64,000 nt of DNA, taken from the IMG/VR virus record IMGVR_UViG_3300042863_000147, positions 25,267 through 89,266 of that record. The stretch is one strand, 5' to 3'. Positions 5,360 to 53,788 of this stretch are shown piece after piece. The number at the start of each line of letters is the position of its first letter. Positions within the stretch are counted from its first letter, which is position 1. The DNA is from a virus. A program made the position numbers and the translations under genes. The notes beneath the pieces were generated by a model. It saw only the letters and a list, made by a program, of their open reading frames with translations. It did not search any database and was not told where the DNA came from.

Positions 5360-5578
5360 TTGTATCTTGATACTGACGGTATCAACAAGCTAGTAACTGA
5401 GTACGAAGTCGATACAAAAGCCTTAAGAGAAGAATTGTTTAAATTTAGTTGGTATATGAGAGGTGGTCTATCATTCTCAGAAGCATTTTTACTCACTCCA
5501 GAAGACCGAGACTTGTTGAATAAGATTATTGAAAGTAACTTAGAGATAACAAAAGAATCTCAATTACCGTTCTTTTAA
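5360..5578 (+). CDS. gp51-like small chaperone, possibly a frameshift extension of the upstream ORF
   Basis: LFKFSWYMRGGLSFSEAFLLTPEDR; only a TTG start with a poorly spaced RBS. Confidence 0.6.
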   Translation: MYLDTDGINKLVTEYEVDTKALREELFKFSWYMRGGLSFSEAFLLTPEDRDLLNKIIESNLEITKESQLPFF

Positions 5579-6114
5579 ATTTCTATTCCTAAGAAATTAC
5601 TCTGTAATCCTACTTTAGTTTCTTTGATTGCACCTAATTTTTGCAGACCGTATGCAACAACTTGGGGTCTACGATCTCCACGAACTGCGTTGATGGTAGC
5701 TACTGCCTTATCAATTGCCTGACGACCTGCTGGAATCCCTAACCTGCCTTCGGGTGCAGCAGGAGCAGTAGCAGGTGTAGTGCCTGTTGGGGGAGTAACA
5801 GGAGCAGTAGCAGGTGTAGTGCCTGTTGGGGGAGTAACAGGAGCAGTAGCAGGTGTAGTGCCTGTTGGGGGAGTAACAGGAGCAGTAGCAGGTGTAGGTT
5901 GTGGTGCTTTATATCCGCCTGCTCTTTGAACATTCCGTTGTGCAACATTGGCAACTCTACCTGCTTGCTGATTATATACATCTTTAGCACCTGCCCATGC
6001 GCCTTTAGCACCTCCAACAACATTTGCAGCACCTTTTGCTGCTGAACCTAGAGCCCCGGCTAGGCTTAACTCATCTATTTGTTGAGATTCAACGATTAAT
6101 TCATTTATACGCAT
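5575..6114 (-). CDS. Late protein with Pro/Thr repeat linker, possible head-internal protein
   Basis: MRINELIVES N-terminus, TPATAPVTPPTGT repeats, perfect TATAAATA upstream. Confidence 0.7.
   Translation of the reverse strand: MRINELIVESQQIDELSLAGALGSAAKGAANVVGGAKGAWAGAKDVYNQQAGRVANVAQRNVQRAGGYKAPQPTPATAPVTPPTGTTPATAPVTPPTGTTPATAPVTPPTGTTPATAPAAPEGRLGIPAGRQAIDKAVATINAVRGDRRPQVVAYGLQKLGAIKETKVGLQSNFLGIEI
5760..5897. repeat. Perfect 39-bp coding tandem repeat, ~3.5 copies
   Basis: aggagcagtagcaggtgtagtgcctgttgggggagtaac at 5761, 5800, 5839, partial at 5878. Confidence 0.95.
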
Positions 6115-6142
6115 AACAGGAAAGTCCTAAAAGTATTTCTTT

Positions 6143-6150
6143 TATTTATA
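6143..6150 (-). promoter_or_regulatory. T4-type late promoter TATAAATA
   Basis: Exact consensus ~30 nt upstream of the ATG at 6114; gp55-like sigma in window. Confidence 0.75.
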
Positions 6151-6629
6151 ATGAGCTGACGCTCATTTGCTTCTTCGTAATCGCTAACGCTCTTACTTGA
6201 AGCAATGTTTCGTCAAAGACGAGAATAATATTATCTAGATTAATCGGTCACACTTAGCCCAGACTAGGGCTAAGAAAAAACTGCATTATCTGAGTAGCAC
6301 AGTCACATAGTGTTAGAACTACAAGCATTTCTGCTAGCGTAGGCGGTTGACCGATACCTACTCATTCTGTCTTAACAACGGCGGCTTACAAATATACACT
6401 ATCATATTTGTAAAGCGTGGAGTTTCTGTTATTACTCCATCCTTGGGCCTATTTTTTAACTCTATTCAAACAATCAAACCGCAGGCATTTTGCGATCGTG
6501 GTCCGGTTAGGATACTGATTGAGTGCTCACTTCAGCGGTGAGTCTTCGGATCCCTGCGATGTTAGTCCAGGTTTCTACTGTTCGGCACACGATATTAGCC
6601 TGTGCGAGCTTTAACTGAATTAAGTTGCC
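6150..6629 (-). ncRNA. Putative large structured ncRNA (~480 nt), family unknown
   Basis: No credible ORF; at least 8 hairpins, long-range helices, GAAA tetraloop on minus strand; starts right after the GIY-YIG stop. Confidence 0.65.
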
Positions 6630-7061
6630 TTAAAGTTTGGATTTAATGTGTGAGCCATGTACACGGACTTGTATGTGTCCGTTATAGTATTCATCGGATT
6701 CTAATACTTTGCGGTCGAATTGTTCGCGGGCCTCAACGTAAGATGTTTCTGCTTTAGATTTACAGTAATATAATATTTCGCGGGAGAAGTTTTCTTTGCC
6801 TAGGGTGTCTATGTCTTTTGTCAGCTCAACACTGGAGCCGTAATATTCTTGCCAGTCGCTATCTATTTTGCTTCTGATCTTCTTTTTCTTTTTTGTGCCG
6901 TTCTTTAACTTTACAGTCTTGTAGGTCGTTTTACTAAATTTTGCTAATTTTTTGCCAATATACTTGCGACCCGAGACTGTATTGGTAATGCAATATACAA
7001 AACCAATACAGTCATCGGGTAGCTCTTCAACTACTGAACCTTGATAAGTCCAGTTAGTCAA
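6630..7061 (-). CDS. GIY-YIG family endonuclease-like protein
   Basis: GFVYCITNTVSGRKYIGKK, YYGSS, E in YVEAREQF and N in YYNG; TTG start abuts the upstream stop. Confidence 0.85.
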   Translation of the reverse strand: MTNWTYQGSVVEELPDDCIGFVYCITNTVSGRKYIGKKLAKFSKTTYKTVKLKNGTKKKKKIRSKIDSDWQEYYGSSVELTKDIDTLGKENFSREILYYCKSKAETSYVEAREQFDRKVLESDEYYNGHIQVRVHGSHIKSKL

Positions 7062-7259
7062 TTATTTTGCTGCCTTGGCTTCTTTGCGAGCGTTCTTTTC
7101 TGCTGTAATTTCATTGCGTCTTGCTTTTACTAGCTTACTTAACTCTCCAAGAGCCTTGCGACTGCGAGTTCCGGCTGCACTATTGCCGCCCGTAAATTTT
7201 GCATCCTCTGCTAGAAATTCTGCAAATTGTGCTTGTAATTGTTCATTGGTTGTTGTCAT
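7062..7259 (-). CDS. Histone H1-like Hc1-family basic protein (65 aa)
   Basis: KFTGGNSAAGTRSRKALGELSKLVKARR resembles Hc1 GNKAAAxRxR; start at 7259 after AAGGA. Confidence 0.7.
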   Translation of the reverse strand: MTTTNEQLQAQFAEFLAEDAKFTGGNSAAGTRSRKALGELSKLVKARRNEITAEKNARKEAKAAK

Positions 7260-7560
7260 TTTTATTTCCTTTTGGTTTCGGTCCCCGTTTTTTAGGGATT
7301 GCTTTGAGTCTTGCTTTCTCTGCCTTTGCATTTTTTAGCTCTGCTCTTTTATTTTCCATACTTTCTTTGCAAACTTTTTGTCCCTGACGTTTCATCTCGT
7401 TTGCAATGTTAGCAATGGCTCTTAGGTGCCTCCTAGTATCCCAGCCTGAATCTCTGCCTACATATTTGATAAATTTCAAATGTGTATTATGCAGTCCCAC
7501 AAGCTCAGCTACTAGCTGTGAATACAGTTCCTTATATTTGTTTATCTCTTCATTCGACAT
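7243..7560 (-). CDS. Basic helical protein, possible divergent Hc1 paralog
   Basis: KF..G.D.G.DTRRHLRAI aligns loosely with the neighbour; Lys-rich tail. Confidence 0.5.
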   Translation of the reverse strand: MSNEEINKYKELYSQLVAELVGLHNTHLKFIKYVGRDSGWDTRRHLRAIANIANEMKRQGQKVCKESMENKRAELKNAKAEKARLKAIPKKRGPKPKGNKNDNNQ

Positions 7561-9328
7561 AATCTACATCGTTTGAGTAAGAAGTAAAACCGTTCTCTTT
7601 AACAACTCTGAGTACGTTATTAACACGACCTACTAATTCGTCCTTATGACTTATTAAGTATATATTCTTATTGCGTTCCCGTGCCATCTTTTTTAGGACC
7701 GCAAGTCCTGCTTCAACGCCTGCTGCATCCATACCTGCATCCATAAGTTCATCGACAAATAGTAAGTTAATATTCTGATACAGTCCTTCCCATACATCAC
7801 GGAATGCAAAGCTCATAGAAAGAATTAATCGATTGCGCTCACCTCTAGATAAGTTGTCAAAGTCTAGATCCTGCCCTAGCTGAGTAATCTCAATAGTAAG
7901 ATCATTTAAGAATACAACCTTATGAGGCAACCCTAACTTGTCAATATAGTAAGTCAGCCTCTTGTTTAAGTAGGTTAAATTCTGATCAATAATCTTCTTA
8001 CGAACAAAACTGTCCTTGTTTGTTAGCAATTTGTAAAGGAATTCTTGATGATCTCTGACCTTAGCAAGAGCATTTACTTGATCCCAATTGATTTCTTGAA
8101 TCGCAGTGTTCTTTAAGTCTTCAATTTGCTCTTCATAAGGATTAGCTTCGTCGATCTTTTGTGTCAATGTACGCTCTAAGCTGGCAAGATTGTTTTTATG
8201 ACCTAGTGCTTCTGCTTCTGTATCATAATATGTGTTGGGCCTATGCGGTTGCTCACCAATTCCTATCTCTTCTACAATTTTAGTGTAGTCAGCACTTACT
8301 TTATCAAAGTAAGTTTGTGCATCTAATAGGTTGTTAGCAGCAGTTGCTAGCATTTCGTCATGCTTGTGATCATGTAGATCCTGTTCACAAGCGGGGCACT
8401 TCTTATCATCGAGTGATTTAATCTCTTTGATGTATTTGTTTAAAGCACGTTCTGCTTGAATTACTGCTGACTCTAGAGTAGCACGTTGTTTGTTAAGACT
8501 GCGAATACGAGCATCCTCCTCGTCCCATGCTTTTAATGCAACATGAGCGGCTAGTTCTGCTTCTATATCAACTGATTCTAGATTAACAATGGCTTTACCT
8601 AGCCCTTCTATTTCAGTTTCTTTCTTAGATTCCCAGGCACTGCTCTTGAGTTGTAGGCTGTTAATGCTCTTTTGAACGTTTTCGTTAGCACTCTTAATAC
8701 CTTCAATTTTAAACTGTGCAGCAGTGATGCTGTCTTTAGTTTCTTTAATCAATAGCTTTAGTGCTTCTGCCTTTTCACTCAGTTGTGTGATGCCCAGTAA
8801 CTGTTCGATAACTTCTCGTTGTTCAGCCGCCTTCATACTTAAGAAGGGTTCTGTGTAGGTATTGAGTGCAACTAGGTGTTTGAACATAGTATGAGACATT
8901 GCCAGCATCTGCTCAATGCTCTTCTGCGTCTCGCGACTGTCACCTTGTGCTTCATCTTCGTCTTTGCTCTTTAATTCTTGGTCATTGACGAACAATTTCA
9001 GTACATTAGGCTTACGACCTCGTTCAATACGATACTTGACACTAGATTTTTCAAACTCAACAGTAACCAACATGCCCTTGCCGTTAGTCTTGTTGATTAA
9101 GTTCTCTTTCTTAATGTTGGTCAGTGCTTGCCCGTACAGTGCGTAGCTCAATGCATTAACAATAGTAGTCTTGCCTGTACCGTTTCTTGATCCAGTATCG
9201 TCACCGCCTAGATCCTGATTTGAACCTAGTACAAGAGTTAAGTGTTCTTTATCGAAATCAACTGCTTGAGTCTGGTTGCCCACACTCATAAAATTTTTAA
9301 CGGTTATATTTTTTAACTTAAATGTCAT
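7550..9328 (-). CDS. gp46: Rad50/SbcC-like recombination ATPase
   Basis: KNFMSVGN, Walker A NGTGKTT, zinc hook CPAC, LSRGE signature, LLFVDE, ISH. Confidence 0.95.
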   Translation of the reverse strand: MTFKLKNITVKNFMSVGNQTQAVDFDKEHLTLVLGSNQDLGGDDTGSRNGTGKTTIVNALSYALYGQALTNIKKENLINKTNGKGMLVTVEFEKSSVKYRIERGRKPNVLKLFVNDQELKSKDEDEAQGDSRETQKSIEQMLAMSHTMFKHLVALNTYTEPFLSMKAAEQREVIEQLLGITQLSEKAEALKLLIKETKDSITAAQFKIEGIKSANENVQKSINSLQLKSSAWESKKETEIEGLGKAIVNLESVDIEAELAAHVALKAWDEEDARIRSLNKQRATLESAVIQAERALNKYIKEIKSLDDKKCPACEQDLHDHKHDEMLATAANNLLDAQTYFDKVSADYTKIVEEIGIGEQPHRPNTYYDTEAEALGHKNNLASLERTLTQKIDEANPYEEQIEDLKNTAIQEINWDQVNALAKVRDHQEFLYKLLTNKDSFVRKKIIDQNLTYLNKRLTYYIDKLGLPHKVVFLNDLTIEITQLGQDLDFDNLSRGERNRLILSMSFAFRDVWEGLYQNINLLFVDELMDAGMDAAGVEAGLAVLKKMARERNKNIYLISHKDELVGRVNNVLRVVKENGFTSYSNDVDYVE

Positions 9329-10338
9329 AGATTATTATAGATGTCCAACAGGACTTTTTTATCAAACTGTTCTGATTCGATATTGATCAGCTGTTCGGAA
9401 ACAATTTGATCGACACTTTCAAACTTTGTGTCAGGATTGTCTTCATAAGTTCCTTCAAGATTAATTTTATCTTGTATAAGACTAATTTCTCTAATGTCGT
9501 AATCATTAGTAAAAGTCTCCTTGATAAAGTTAGCCTCTTCAAAGCTGATATCGATGTCTAAATTGACCTTTAGATGCATCTTTGACTGCATAATCGTGTC
9601 TTTTTTATCGATTAGGTCGCTTAGTTTAACATGTCTATACTTAGGGCAGTTGTCCCAGTTAATGTATTGGGGCTCACTGCCCCAATCCATAATCATCATG
9701 CCTCGCTCGTCGTCCCACGAGTCTGCAAAGTTATGTGGGAAAGCATTTCCAATGTAGTGGATCTTACCTCGGTTCTGTCTCTTGTGGAAATGCCCACTGA
9801 ATACATAGTCTTGGTGTGTAAAGTGATTAGCCTGTAACTCACCGTGATCAGGCATCTGTACCATGGCGTTCATGTAGAACAAGGGCAATTCAAAGTGCCC
9901 AAACATGTATTTGCTCTTAACTTGACTGATAGTTTTCCACTCATCACCTACAAGCCAAGGGACTAAGGTAACATCGCCTATAGTGGTCACACCTTCAACG
10001 ACAGTTACTCCGGGAATATGTTTTCCAAATGCGCTGCTATGGATGTCACGCTTGTCTTTGTAGAACAGATCATGATTGCCCGGAAACCAAAAGAATTGCT
10101 CAAAAGCAGCACCTAGTTTTTCCAAGCATCGGATACTGGTATCCAGCGTGATCAAGTTGAGACTGTTTCGATTATGCGACCAGTCACCTAAAAATATTCC
10201 AGTATCGCAACCTTGTTTTTTAGCGTTTTCAATATACCAATCTACAAATTCTTCGCAATCTCTTAAATGGGTGCCACTGTTAGATTTAAGTCCAAAATGA
10301 ATATCAGTGAAGCAGGCTACCTTTTTAAAAAGGTTCAT
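9325..10338 (-). CDS. gp47: Mre11/SbcD-like nuclease
   Basis: DIHFG, FLGD, GNHD, GHFE, SGHFH phosphoesterase motifs. Confidence 0.95.
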   Translation of the reverse strand: MNLFKKVACFTDIHFGLKSNSGTHLRDCEEFVDWYIENAKKQGCDTGIFLGDWSHNRNSLNLITLDTSIRCLEKLGAAFEQFFWFPGNHDLFYKDKRDIHSSAFGKHIPGVTVVEGVTTIGDVTLVPWLVGDEWKTISQVKSKYMFGHFELPLFYMNAMVQMPDHGELQANHFTHQDYVFSGHFHKRQNRGKIHYIGNAFPHNFADSWDDERGMMIMDWGSEPQYINWDNCPKYRHVKLSDLIDKKDTIMQSKMHLKVNLDIDISFEEANFIKETFTNDYDIREISLIQDKINLEGTYEDNPDTKFESVDQIVSEQLINIESEQFDKKVLLDIYNNL

Positions 10339-18645: not shown

Positions 18646-19083
18646 ATGCCATATAAGAATCTAGAAATCAATGTTTCAAATTATAATAGTCAGCACACTA
18701 ATGTACTGACTCATTATTACAGAGGATTTAGCACTGTTAATCCAGATAACACTAGTGCCAAGTTATACGATTTTGATATAATCAAACAGAACATCCTTAA
18801 TCATTTTAACACCCGCAAAGGGCAGCGAGTAATGAATCCTAACTTTGGGACTATTATCTGGGATGTCCTAATGGAACCATTGACGCCACAAATTAAATTA
18901 GCATTAACTAAAGATATTGAAGAAATTTGTAATTTTGATCCCAGAGTATATCCTACACAGATAAACATCAATGAATACGAAAGAGGATTCCTAATTGATG
19001 TAGCATTGTCTTTAAAAGACACGGATCAATCTTCAACACTTCGTTTAGCATTCGATCAAAAAGTTGGATTAGTGCTGCAATAA
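18646..19083 (+). CDS. gp25: Baseplate wedge gp25-like
   Basis: NILNHFNTRKGQRVMNPNFGT..W..L.EP, DPRV. Confidence 0.9.
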   Translation: MPYKNLEINVSNYNSQHTNVLTHYYRGFSTVNPDNTSAKLYDFDIIKQNILNHFNTRKGQRVMNPNFGTIIWDVLMEPLTPQIKLALTKDIEEICNFDPRVYPTQININEYERGFLIDVALSLKDTDQSSTLRLAFDQKVGLVLQ

Positions 19084-52924: not shown

Positions 52925-53788
52925 ATGAATAATTTGAGAACACAAATTATCTGGATGCTCAACGACTACTGTACAGCCGAGTGTTCCTATTGTCCGATAA
53001 AATTTCGTGGTGGAGAATTACCTAGAGGGATATTAGATTATATGTCTGTAACAGGAAAACTTATTGATCATTACGAGTCCATTGGTAGAAAAATTGATTG
53101 GTCATTTAATGGGGGAGAACCACTTGACATGTTTGATTTTCCTATGATGCTAAAGTTATGTAAGGAACGAGGCGGCACAATTGATCTACACACAAATGGA
53201 GGAAAGTTATGGTTAGATTGGTGGGCAATTGAGCCACATGTTGATTCGTTACATTTAACGTACCACTATTGGCAAAATCCTAGTCTTGTACGATTTATTT
53301 TACAGGCATTTACCAAAGCTAACAAGTGTGTAGATATTATGGTTCCTATTAGACCAGATTATTTCGATGACGATTTAAAACGAGCATTGGATATAGAAAC
53401 AGAATTTGGCATAGTAGTTTCTAAAACTGTACTATATCGAGAAGCTGAACAATCATTGGGGATGTACAATTATACTGATCAACAACTAAGAATCATGCGA
53501 GGAGAAGAACTTGTACAGGAAAATGTACATCATCAAGAGACTACATTTGCAGAACGTTTCGAAGAAAAAATTATTGCAAGTCCTTCATTTACTGGAATGA
53601 AATGTAACGTAGGAATTGAAAAATTAGTAATTACTCATCTAGGGTGGGTAAGGGGAAGCAATTGTAATATTGGACAGTTTGGAAATATTTGGGACGGTAG
53701 CTTAGAATATCCAACAAGCCCGCTTACTTGTAATATGCTGGCTTGTATAGATGGTTCCGACCAACAAATTACTAAATTTAGTCAATAA
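52925..53788 (+). CDS. Radical SAM protein with C-terminal Cys (twitch/SPASM-like) cluster
   Basis: CTAECSYC, GGEP, TNG, C-terminal CNVG..C..C...C. Confidence 0.88.
   Translation: MNNLRTQIIWMLNDYCTAECSYCPIKFRGGELPRGILDYMSVTGKLIDHYESIGRKIDWSFNGGEPLDMFDFPMMLKLCKERGGTIDLHTNGGKLWLDWWAIEPHVDSLHLTYHYWQNPSLVRFILQAFTKANKCVDIMVPIRPDYFDDDLKRALDIETEFGIVVSKTVLYREAEQSLGMYNYTDQQLRIMRGEELVQENVHHQETTFAERFEEKIIASPSFTGMKCNVGIEKLVITHLGWVRGSNCNIGQFGNIWDGSLEYPTSPLTCNMLACIDGSDQQITKFSQ

What the first reader, a model, noticed from the sequence alone, without database searches (positions are those of the whole stretch)
6150..7061. ~480-nt ornate non-coding RNA candidate directly behind a GIY-YIG nuclease gene
Seen: this is the largest gap in a gene-dense window and it is packed with inverted repeats: 6150-6167 (aatgagc/gctcatt), 6168-6204, 6253-6274 (cttagccc/gggctaag), 6325-6336 (AGCA-GAAA-UGCU on minus), 6384-6416 (ttacaaatat/atatttgtaa), 6418-6439, 6526-6542 and 6582-6607. 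A ~12-bp long-range helix (~6458-6469 with ~6615-6626) works with G-U pairs on the minus strand. Two crossing helix pairs suggest pseudoknots: 6471-76/6516-21 with 6480-85/6553-58, and 6243-50/6348-55 with 6291-97/6358-64. The element begins at the GIY-YIG stop on the same strand with no terminator between. The nuclease is minimal (143 aa), lacks a DNA-recognition domain and carries a Lys-rich insert (KTVKLKNGTKKKKKIRSK). Known: compact nucleases paired with large adjacent RNAs include HEARO/IscB and TnpB; phages also carry large orphan RNAs such as GOLLD and ROOL. Inference: a candidate nuclease-RNA ribonucleoprotein, ribozyme or structural RNA; I do not recognise the family.
Basis: partly seen in the sequence, partly recalled or inferred. 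Interest (0 to 1): 0.88.

Follow-up and report, generated by a model that had tools for sequence, protein, structure and literature searches.

The report
Extended Polynucleobacter-1 twin-box phage RNA
The gene-free 515 bases behind a small nuclease gene of this uncultured giant freshwater T4-like phage encode a real, doubly knotted non-coding RNA of about 480 bases; its first third is an orphan motif catalogued in 2010 (Polynucleobacter-1), and the uncatalogued rest carries one 7-letter word twice, always identical, for a reader that I could not find.

Summary
The gap 6115-6629 holds a conserved structured RNA on the minus strand.

It is only partly new. Positions 6610-6468 match Rfam RF01718 (Polynucleobacter-1) at 80 bits against a cut-off of 37. 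The 2010 paper already placed that motif downstream of homologues of P-SSM2 gene 218, and I show that this gene family is the GIY-YIG gene seen here.

New findings:
- The conserved RNA runs about 320 nt beyond the Rfam model, to a hairpin at 6167-6150.
- This extension has nine helices supported by covariation, two of them pseudoknots.
- Its 3' core is shared with two further classes that lack the Rfam domain and have no Rfam match.
- The core shows a 7-nt word twice (6291-6285 and 6236-6230). The two copies are identical in all 83 distinct relatives, although the word itself changes often.

I found no partner that tracks the word in cis, in the nuclease gene, or in six genomes.

The nuclease-RNA particle idea is not supported. 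The protein family occurs in 510 cultured phage records, and the three I checked have no such RNA. Conserved gene order alone can explain the linkage.

This scan has reported the same RNA before in many other genomes. Function is unknown. I class it as a new variant of a known kind.

The parts
6150..6629 (-). Full-length non-coding RNA (class I twin-box RNA), about 460-480 nt, from just after the GIY-YIG stop codon to the terminal hairpin
   Evidence: Module lengths are conserved in about 50 relatives. DNA conservation runs through about 6143 in close relatives and about 6227 in distant ones. Helices covary.
6468..6610 (-). 5' domain = Rfam RF01718, Polynucleobacter-1
   Evidence: 80.2 bits against a gathering score of 37, model positions 1-141 of 141. 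Its three helices covary in 83 sequences.
6465..6475 (-). Near-invariant strand GAUUGUUUGAA (consensus GUUGUUUG) at the junction after the Rfam domain; complementary to either box
   Evidence: 87-88% of cells pair with box 1 or box 2, against 8-57% when slid; there are no compensatory changes. This pairing is possible, not shown.
6419..6438 (-). Hairpin GGAG...CUCC
   Evidence: Helix 1, with compensatory changes (GC, CG, UA, AU).
6384..6416 (-). Long hairpin whose loop (6402-6397) forms pseudoknot 1
   Evidence: Helices 2 and 3: 10 of 11 pairs have changes on both sides.
6307..6312 (-). 3' strand of pseudoknot 1 (pairs with 6402-6397)
   Evidence: Helix 4: 98.5% paired, 5 of 6 pairs compensatory.
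6339..6379 (-). Core: GUUGU (6379-6375), stem 6367-6364, and hairpin 6360-6340 with the conserved loop GGUAYCGGNCAACCGCC. The loop's CAAC (6350-6346) pairs back to GUUGU, forming pseudoknot 2.
   Evidence: Helices 5-8. Invariant columns are listed. The same loop occurs in class II.
6324..6335 (-). Small GAAA-loop hairpin in an insertion specific to the window's near relatives
   Evidence: Alignment A1 shows this insertion only in the window and L004; other relatives carry other insertions at this site.
6284..6306 (-). Box 1 unit: GUGAC-N6-A-CUC-AGAUAAU-G (7-nt word at 6291-6285)
6253..6274 (-). 8-bp hairpin between the boxes
   Evidence: Covaries. Other stems of the same kind replace it in classes II and III.
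6229..6253 (-). Box 2 unit: GUGUGAC-N6-A-UCU-AGAUAAU-A (7-nt word at 6236-6230)
   Evidence: The word is identical to box 1 in 83 of 83 distinct sequences. Mutual information between 6291 and 6236 is 0.97 of a possible 1.00.
6169..6203 (-). Hairpin with the conserved loop GAGCG-NN-AGCGA
   Evidence: 53 of 83 sequences carry the exact motif, about 46 nt after box 2, flanked by 4-7 bp stems of differing sequence. The motif is also present in classes II and III.
6150..6167 (-). Terminal hairpin, the likely 3' end of the RNA (weak terminator or processing stop)
   Evidence: Similar hairpins occupy this place in classes II and III. That it is the 3' end is inferred.
6143..6150 (-). TATAAATA, the T4 late-promoter consensus for the next gene
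   Evidence: Seen directly in the sequence. 26 of 83 relatives have an exact copy 67-106 nt after box 2. The consensus itself is from established T4 knowledge.
6630..7061 (-). GIY-YIG domain-only protein, 143 aa (PHROG 447; homologue of P-SSM2 gene 218)

Best explanation
This is the full-length class I form of a family of roughly 400-500-nt structured non-coding RNAs of uncultured, about 350-kb, T4-like freshwater phages.

It is read from the minus strand as the tail of the early gp46...GIY-YIG gene block. Only 19 nt separate the stop codon from the RNA. It ends at the hairpin 6167-6150, just before the late promoter of the next gene.

Layout, 5' to 3':
- the Polynucleobacter-1 domain;
- two hairpins;
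- a doubly pseudoknotted core around the loop GGUAYCGGNCAACCGCC;
- the twin-box module, in which two stretches of the form 'GUGAC, 5-8 nt, A, YYY, 7-nt word' flank an 8-bp hairpin;
- two more hairpins.

I take the twin-box module to be the working part, because it is the only part shared by all three classes. The RNA most likely acts on its own as a stable folded RNA and not as a guide for the neighbouring nuclease. The knotted body would hold the two boxes in a fixed geometry for a single reader that needs both words to be alike.

The only candidate reader I found in cis is the near-invariant strand GUUGUUUG (6474-6467). It can pair with either box, and every variable purine of the word then lies opposite a U. 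That would give two alternative closing helices, so a two-state switch. I put this particular mechanism at about 20%.

Shown: the RNA, its strand, its fold, its extent, the identity of the two words, and the linkage to the gene.
For: - Rfam match of 80.2 bits over the full model.
- The gene association published in 2010 is this same gene family.
- At least 588 homologous loci exist in IMG/VR. RF01718 occurs exactly once per contig, 9-19 nt after the stop codon, in 37 of 50 contigs; 3 of the negatives are truncated.
- In the 3' extension, 42 pairs in 9 helices are 93.9% paired, against 78.9% in shuffles and about 40% when slid. 29 pairs have compensatory changes. The covariation score is 0.455 against 0.182, reached by 0 of 500 shuffles.
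- Invariant G-U pairs fix the strand as minus.
- Classes II and III keep the twin-box module but have other 5' domains and no Rfam match.
- The two words are identical in 83 of 83 sequences over ten word variants, including a G-to-C and a U-to-C change made in both copies.
- There is a single copy in each of two complete genomes.
- The strand GUUGUUUG pairs with either box in 87-88% of cells. In L032 the U-to-C change in both words turns a U-G into a C-G opposite the class II equivalent (sequence).
- RNA-library contigs of relatives from four studies cover the gene and the 5' domain, and some bridge the two.
Against: - No function has been shown.
- The switch idea has no compensatory change behind it: 0 pairs with changes on both sides, the same as in shuffles.
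- The GUUGUUUG strand is missing in 4-5 class I sequences, and I found no equivalent in class III.
- A U tolerates both A and G, so pairing alone does not force the two words to be identical.
- The RNA-library evidence consists of contigs of relatives. It carries no strand information, and carry-over of DNA is possible.
- Tight same-strand linkage to the nuclease gene leaves some joint function open.
Confidence: 0.55

Rival explanations
1. Cis-acting tail or leader. The RNA would be a 3' UTR that stabilises or terminates the early gp46-GIY-YIG transcript, or a sensor (riboswitch-like) that controls read-through into the late gene behind it.
For: It lies at the boundary between an early, minus-strand gene block and a gene with its own late promoter. 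It ends in hairpins. The 2010 paper scored the motif as probably cis-regulatory. The compact pseudoknotted core with invariant loop bases resembles a ligand pocket.
Against: The downstream gene differs between relatives and is often on the opposite strand; the window's downstream gene has a homologue in only 1 of 80 loci. It also has its own promoter. About 480 nt with three interchangeable 5' domains is far more than a terminator needs. Nothing in this idea explains two identical words.
Confidence: 0.12
2. Primer or R-loop RNA of a replication origin. The upstream copy of the word in the nascent RNA would pair with the template DNA at the downstream copy and seed a lasting RNA-DNA hybrid. This is how ColE1 RNA II works through a repeated G-run (from my own knowledge of Masukata and Tomizawa 1990; not looked up here).
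For: This mechanism would require 'like with like' direct repeats. The RNA is long and structured, as RNA II is. It is single-copy per genome. It lies next to replication and recombination genes. T4 origins are known to use R-loops (established knowledge).
Against: The three bases in the middle of each box differ (CUC vs UCU) in every sequence of classes I and III and in class II apart from the L032 variant, which would break a hybrid. Cumulative GC skew shows no clear turn at the locus in the two complete genomes; the minima lie about 5 kb away in G000 and G002 and 23 kb away in G015, as expected from gene orientation.
Confidence: 0.06
3. RNA partner of the GIY-YIG nuclease. The RNA would bind the domain-only nuclease, and the twin words would give it target specificity.
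For: Same-strand adjacency in 70 of 73 and 40 of 41 loci. The protein has no DNA-binding domain and has a basic insert that is 6-9 aa longer in the RNA-bearing lineage. The words vary quickly, as a specificity element would.
Against: The family has one copy in each of 510 cultured phage records. No RNA was detected at three loci tested, and P-SSM2 has no room for one. ORF insertions between the gene and the RNA are tolerated. Three loci have the gene but no RNA. Relatives L016 and L035 carry the longer basic insert but have a class III RNA. No site in the gene tracks the word; the highest mutual information is 0.26 of 1.0. A 7-nt word is too short to serve as a guide. General gene order is equally conserved.
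Confidence: 0.04
4. Hop, copy or processing element. A strand made on, or cut at, one box must fit the other. Examples are template jumping by a polymerase (as in DRT2 or telomerase RNA), or cutting at both boxes to release or circularise the unit of about 55 nt.
For: Identity of two otherwise free-to-vary words, with constant but different left flanks and a conserved spacing of 47-57 nt, is the signature of re-annealing mechanisms.
Against: No reverse transcriptase (PF00078) was found in two complete and three partial genomes. No known ribozyme family matched. A translational hop is excluded because the stretch before box 1 varies in length by non-multiples of three and no ORF leads into it.
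Confidence: 0.05
5. DNA-level element. The two boxes would be protein-binding iterons or recombination cores, and the RNA-like conservation would be secondary.
For: The repeats are direct and spaced about five helical turns apart. Identical cores with different arms recall recombinase sites.
Against: Compensatory changes and invariant G-U pairs show selection on a folded minus-strand RNA. A 55-bp interval is too short for DNA recombination. Frequent A/G flips occur with no correlated change in nearby proteins.
Confidence: 0.03

Closest known systems
Polynucleobacter-1 RNA motif (Rfam RF01718; Weinberg et al. 2010, Genome Biol 11:R31, PMC2864571)
   Same: The 5' third (6610-6468) is a full-length member at 80 bits. 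The habitat is the same (fresh water). The gene context is the same: downstream of homologues of P-SSM2 gene 218.
   Different: The Rfam model covers 141 of about 480 nt. The 2010 paper found no copy in any sequenced phage and did not identify the neighbouring gene as a GIY-YIG gene. The 3' extension, its two pseudoknots, the twin boxes and the two sister classes are not in Rfam.
HEARO / IscB and TnpB omega-RNAs (RNA-guided nucleases of IS200/605 elements)
   Same: A large structured RNA sits directly next to a small nuclease gene on the same strand.
   Different: The nuclease fold is different (GIY-YIG, not RuvC/HNH). There is no long variable guide, only a 7-nt word. I did not look for transposon ends. 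The protein family mostly lacks the RNA.
Large orphan phage-associated RNAs (GOLLD, ROOL)
   Same: A large, ornate, multi-pseudoknot RNA of unknown function carried by phages, single-copy and well conserved.
   Different: No sequence or model match. It is smaller. It is not next to tRNA genes. It has the twin-box feature.
ColE1 RNA II (origin primer RNA)
   Same: A structured transcript of about 500 nt in which an upstream RNA segment and an identical downstream segment matter ('like with like').
   Different: No evidence of origin function here. The repeats are interrupted by a constant mismatch, CUC vs UCU. This comparison rests on my own knowledge, not on a test.
Type III toxin-antitoxin RNAs (ToxI)
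   Same: Direct repeats in an RNA next to a nuclease gene.
   Different: ToxI consists of several near-identical 36-nt units upstream of an endoribonuclease. Here only 11-13 nt are alike, the RNA lies downstream, and it has a large unique body.

Membership tests
Rfam RF01718 Polynucleobacter-1 | Covariance-model score at or above the curated gathering score (37 bits) | tested here: met
   80.2 bits, E 2.2e-15 for the whole window.
Rfam RF01718 Polynucleobacter-1 | All model helices present (5' hairpin, middle hairpins, long-range helix, 3' hairpin) | tested here: met
   Model positions 1-141 of 141 are aligned. In 83 relatives, 6605-6601/6589-6585, 6521-6516/6476-6471 and 6497-6492/6482-6477 covary.
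Rfam RF01718 Polynucleobacter-1 | Context: downstream of GOS11034 / P-SSM2 gene 218 homologues (2010 supplement) | tested here: met
   PSSM2_218 matches the window's GIY-YIG protein at 41% identity, E 1.3e-17.
IscB/TnpB-type RNA-guided nuclease systems | The nuclease family is consistently accompanied by its RNA | tested here: not met
   510 cultured phage records carry the protein. Three loci tested have no Rfam hit, and in P-SSM2 the next gene abuts the stop codon.
IscB/TnpB-type RNA-guided nuclease systems | A variable guide segment of about 16 nt or more at one end of the RNA | tested here: not met
   The only fast-varying, unpaired element is the 7-nt word, which is internal and duplicated.
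IscB/TnpB-type RNA-guided nuclease systems | Physical binding of RNA and protein | not testable with these tools
   No RNA-protein prediction tool was available. No covarying protein site was found.
Group I intron with a homing endonuclease ORF | Match to the intron core model and a split host gene | tested here: not met
   No RF00028 match at E <= 1 in 5900-7200. The flanking ORFs are complete and unrelated.
Known self-cleaving ribozymes and riboswitch classes in Rfam | Match to any curated model | tested here: not met
   Only RF01718 matched; a sub-threshold Methylobacterium-1 hit (24 bits, E 0.13) is likely chance. Classes II and III had no match.
T4 gene-60-type translational bypass | Take-off and landing codons inside one reading frame | tested here: not met
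   No ORF enters the boxes. The stretch before box 1 varies from 9 to 14 nt.

The most novel reading that the evidence does not exclude
The twin 7-nt words are a specificity code read together with the neighbouring domain-only GIY-YIG nuclease. The RNA would serve as an address label for a nuclease that has no DNA-binding domain of its own, which would be the first RNA-directed GIY-YIG enzyme. The evidence weighs against this but does not exclude it for this lineage, whose proteins carry a longer basic insert.
Probability: 0.03. Interest if true: 0.95.

Novelty: new variant of a known kind. Interest (0 to 1): 0.55.

Why it matters
Polynucleobacter-1 has been an orphan Rfam entry since 2010, with 16 examples and no known source organism apart from one bacterial genome. 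This work places it in giant (about 350-kb) T4-like freshwater phages. It shows that the catalogued motif is only the first third of an RNA of about 480 nt. It also shows that the conserved working part is an uncatalogued 3' module shared by two further classes.

That gives RNA biologists a defined large RNA with two pseudoknots to study. It also poses a sharp puzzle: two copies of a 7-nt word that change often but never differ from each other. Perfect 'like with like' covariation with no complementary partner is rare. It points to a mechanism in which the two sites are compared, such as a switch, a hop or a symmetric reader, and that can be tested by swapping one box or both.

Two practical points follow. 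The neighbouring gene family is widely mislabelled 'NAD synthetase'. And the Rfam model could be extended and split into three classes.

Tried and rejected
- Cis partner for the word. No column shares information with 6291 or 6236 other than each other; the next best value is 0.15. No exact reverse complement lies at a consistent place in the loci. No window of the RNA is complementary to its own word more often than to another lineage's word; the one excess, in 9 sequences, was not inspected.
- Co-varying protein. In 1.3 kb upstream, including the nuclease gene, the highest mutual information is 0.26 of 1.0 for the most variable position.
- Trans target or genome-wide motif in six genomes (89-355 kb, five different words). 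The genome's own word is neither enriched nor depleted in sense or antisense. No second pair of anti-words exists. The 10-nt complements lie in ORFs that are not homologous across genomes, apart from one 24%-identity pair hit on opposite strands.
- A third box-like site at 52946 and a complement at 18853 both lie inside ORFs and are probably chance.
- Reverse transcriptase: none found.
- Leader/junction long-range helix: no better than random partners.
- GC skew: no origin-like turn at the locus.
- Computed accessibility of the boxes: 0.42-0.49 unpaired against 0.40 overall, so uninformative.
- Cultured relatives. No DNA match in 50,697 phage records. No Rfam hit behind the homologous gene in Melnitz, BUCT-ZZ01 or V45v66.
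- Host. The cellular-genome scan gave 12 MAG contigs from unrelated phyla, a bin labelled only 'uncultured bacterium' and one isolate, so it gives no host clue.
- Public RNA runs. Four metatranscriptome runs hold only contigs of relatives. Parts without cover, and one 204-nt skip in a single diverged contig, say nothing. There is no information on strand, ends or joined forms.
- Solved structures: no sequence relative of the nuclease.
Full report
WHAT IS THERE

The window is bases 25267-89266 of an 89-kb IMG/VR virus contig that CheckV rates at about 25% complete. Around the finding, the minus strand carries these genes:
- gp47-like and gp46-like recombination nuclease genes (9325-10338 and 7550-9328);
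- two small ORFs, one of them Hc1-like (PF07432);
- a 143-aa ORF at 6630-7061 that matches the SegE GIY-YIG domain over the whole profile (PF19835, E 1.7e-33);
- after a gap, a 179-aa ORF at 5575-6114.

The gap 6115-6629 has no credible ORF. Both strands fold better than shuffled sequence, with z = -2.8 for the minus strand and -4.2 for the plus strand. There are no tRNA genes in the window.

IT IS PARTLY A KNOWN FAMILY

A scan of all Rfam families gives one hit above threshold in the whole window: RF01718, Polynucleobacter-1, at 6610-6468 on the minus strand. It scores 80.2 bits against a gathering score of 37, with model positions 1-141 of 141 aligned.

The only paper in the library that names the motif is Weinberg et al. 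2010 (PMC2864571). Its table lists the motif as a probable RNA from Burkholderiales and fresh water. [quoted passage not shown]

I checked that locus. PSSM2_218 of cyanophage P-SSM2 is annotated 'NAD synthetase' and belongs to T4-like gene cluster 213. It matches the window's GIY-YIG protein at 41% identity, E 1.3e-17. So both the motif and its gene association were published in 2010, although the gene was not recognised as a GIY-YIG gene.

RELATIVES AND LINKAGE

The GIY-YIG protein has at least 588 close homologues in IMG/VR, 70-96% identical among the 80 loci kept and all about 140 aa long.

In 50 of the source contigs, RF01718 is present in 37. It is always present exactly once and lies 9-19 nt after the stop codon on the same strand. 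Three of the 13 negatives are contigs that end at the gene.

I then searched from the RNA side, using a pattern taken from the 3' part followed by a profile search. This found 42 more loci. Of the 41 with upstream sequence, 40 have the gene upstream on the same strand.

Two complete genomes, of 354,680 bp and 346,856 bp (the latter with terminal repeats), each hold one copy. These are therefore giant T4-like phages. The nearest cultured relatives of the protein belong to the family Kyanoviridae.

THE RNA IS MUCH LONGER THAN THE RFAM MODEL

DNA conservation continues past 6468. It reaches about 6227 in distant relatives and about 6143 in close ones. The lengths of four successive modules are conserved.

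On a 45-sequence alignment of 6472-6221, I tested a structure of 42 pairs in nine helices:
- 93.9% of cells are paired, against 78.9% in shuffles and 36-44% when the 3' partners are slid.
- 29 pairs have changes on both sides.
- The covariation score is 0.455 against 0.182, and 0 of 500 shuffles reach it.

Two of the helices are pseudoknots:
- The loop of the hairpin 6416-6384 (bases 6402-6397) pairs with 6312-6307. It is 98.5% paired, and 5 of 6 pairs are compensatory.
- GUUGU (6379-6375) pairs with the CAAC part (6350-6346) of the conserved loop GGUAYCGGNCAACCGCC.

Invariant G-U pairs place the fold on the minus strand. An analysis of 83 distinct sequences gives the same helices and the 8-bp hairpin 6274-6253.

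Further 3' lie:
- a hairpin (6203-6169) whose loop GAGCG-NN-AGCGA is exact in 53 of 83 sequences, with stems of differing sequence;
- a terminal hairpin (6167-6150);
- TATAAATA, the T4 late-promoter consensus, at 6150-6143.

THREE CLASSES SHARE ONE MODULE

I classified the 80 loci found through the protein:
- 55 are class I, like the window, plus one that is cut off.
- 9 are class II. These have no RF01718 domain and a different 5' domain of about 190 nt, but the same core loop and boxes. L032 is a variant of this class.
- 5 are class III, with yet another 5' body.
- 3 have the gene but no RNA in the 2-3 kb available.
- 7 are truncated.

Counting L032 as class II, 70 of 73 testable loci carry such an RNA. 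Classes II and III match nothing in Rfam.

What all classes share is the twin-box module. It consists of two stretches of the form GUGAC (or a close variant), 1-8 nt, A, three pyrimidines, and a 7-nt word. The two stretches are separated by a hairpin and followed by another.

THE TWIN WORDS

In the window the word is AGAUAAU, at 6291-6285 and 6236-6230.

Across 83 distinct class I sequences, the positions that vary in the word never differ between the two copies. Mutual information between 6291 and 6236 is 0.97 of a possible 1.00. The base before each box mostly agrees as well.

The three pyrimidines do differ between the boxes: CUC in box 1 and UCU in box 2. This holds in every sequence except the L032 variant.

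Ten words occur in all. Two of them carry changes made in both copies: ACAUGAA in class III (a G-to-C change) and AGACGAA in L032 (a U-to-C change). Lineages with identical flanks carry different words. The most variable position also shows no phylogenetic partner nearby. So the change has happened many times, and each time in both copies.

Gene conversion is unlikely to be the cause, because it would have to skip the three constant, differing bases in the middle of each box.

I found none.
- No third column of the RNA tracks the word.
- No complement sits at a fixed place in the loci.
- No site in the nuclease gene or the 1.3 kb upstream tracks it.
- In six genomes with five different words, the genome's own word is not enriched or depleted on either strand. 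No second pair of anti-words exists. The few 10-nt complements lie in ORFs that are not homologous between genomes, apart from one weak pair hit on opposite strands.
- There is no reverse transcriptase gene.

The one cis candidate is the near-invariant strand GUUGUUUG (6474-6467). It can pair with either box in 87-88% of cells, against 8-57% when slid, and every variable purine then lies opposite a U. This would explain why class I words vary almost only between A and G. It would also give two alternative closing helices. Against it:
- it has no compensatory change behind it;
- it is missing in a few class I sequences;
- I found no equivalent in class III;
- pairing with U does not by itself force the two words to be identical.

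DOES THE RNA WORK WITH THE NUCLEASE?

The linkage is tight, but general gene order is just as tight: gp46 lies upstream of the nuclease gene in 74 of 80 loci.

The protein family (PHROG 447) is present as a single copy in 510 cultured phage records. These are mostly cyanophages, but also include Melnitz, Sinorhizobium phiM12, Stenotrophomonas Moby and others. Three such loci show no RNA family hit, and in P-SSM2 the next gene starts at the stop codon.

It is only 6-9 aa longer in this lineage. Several relatives also carry an extra ORF between the gene and the RNA. I therefore rate the particle idea at a few percent.

EXPRESSION

Fourteen DNA runs from lake water hold the stretch. Six RNA runs hold small parts of it. 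I laid four of the RNA runs, from four studies, on the stretch. They give contigs of relatives, 85-95% alike, over the nuclease gene and the Polynucleobacter-1 domain, and some bridge the two. This is weak support for transcription and co-transcription. It says nothing about strand or transcript ends.

The hairpins and the helix 6471-76/6516-21 are confirmed. The other three crossing helices and the 12-bp long-range helix are not conserved.

VERDICT

This is a real RNA. It is a member of a known but unexplained family, and I show here that it is a much larger, three-class family with a striking duplicated word. The function is unknown.

Earlier notes of this scan describe the same RNA in many other genomes and reach the same reading. 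I had reached mine before reading them. They do not count as independent evidence.

Noticed in passing
window 5760-5897 (inside ORF 5575-6114, minus): A perfect 39-bp tandem repeat, 3.5 copies, encoding Pro/Thr-rich repeats in the 179-aa late gene behind the RNA. A homologue of this protein was found in only 1 of 80 related loci. The genes at this position share an N-terminus (MK/RINELI...) but differ greatly in length, so this looks like a hypervariable gene.
   Followed up: partly
window 6630-7061; NC_006883 176711-177148 (PSSM2_218): The GIY-YIG domain-only family (PHROG 447, T4-like gene cluster 213) is annotated 'NAD synthetase' in many GenBank and RefSeq phage records and in PHROGs. Pfam places it in SegE_GIY-YIG at E 1.7e-33. 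This looks like a propagated misannotation.
   Followed up: partly
L055:3430-3800 (class II); L016:3424-3900 and L057:3430-3910 (class III): Two sister RNA classes sit behind the same gene. They have different 5' bodies but the same twin-box module. Neither matches any Rfam family.
   Followed up: partly
L060:3429-4244; L139, L169, L014/L015, L017, L056: In several relatives an extra ORF lies between the GIY-YIG gene and the RNA (272 aa in L060, 337 aa in L017). The RNA then follows the inserted ORF. I did not identify these ORFs.
   Followed up: no
L181:4642-4860 and L181:9123-9453: This is the one RNA-bearing locus with no GIY-YIG gene in the 4.6 kb upstream. The same locus has four copies of ATCTAAATAAA, 66 or 132 nt apart, about 4.3 kb downstream.
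   Followed up: no
L207-L218 (genome contigs): Close relatives of this phage locus sit in MAGs labelled Bacteriovoracaceae, Bacteroidetes, Flavobacteriales, Polynucleobacter, Haliscomenobacter (contigs of 148 and 183 kb) and others. These look like phage contigs binned into bacterial genomes.
   Followed up: no
contig G002 (86 kb; L263-L267) and five other genomes: The 7-mer GGATGAT, and its complement, are absent from G002 outside the RNA (about 8 expected). The 7-mer is under-represented in five of the six genomes examined, G015 being the exception. GGATAAT is also under-represented. The cause is unknown.
   Followed up: no
window 7062-7331 and 7243-7560 (minus): Two overlapping small ORFs lie just upstream of the nuclease gene. 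The first matches the chlamydial histone-like Hc1 family (PF07432, E 1.2e-12). Homologues were found in only 23 and 15 of 80 related loci.
   Followed up: no
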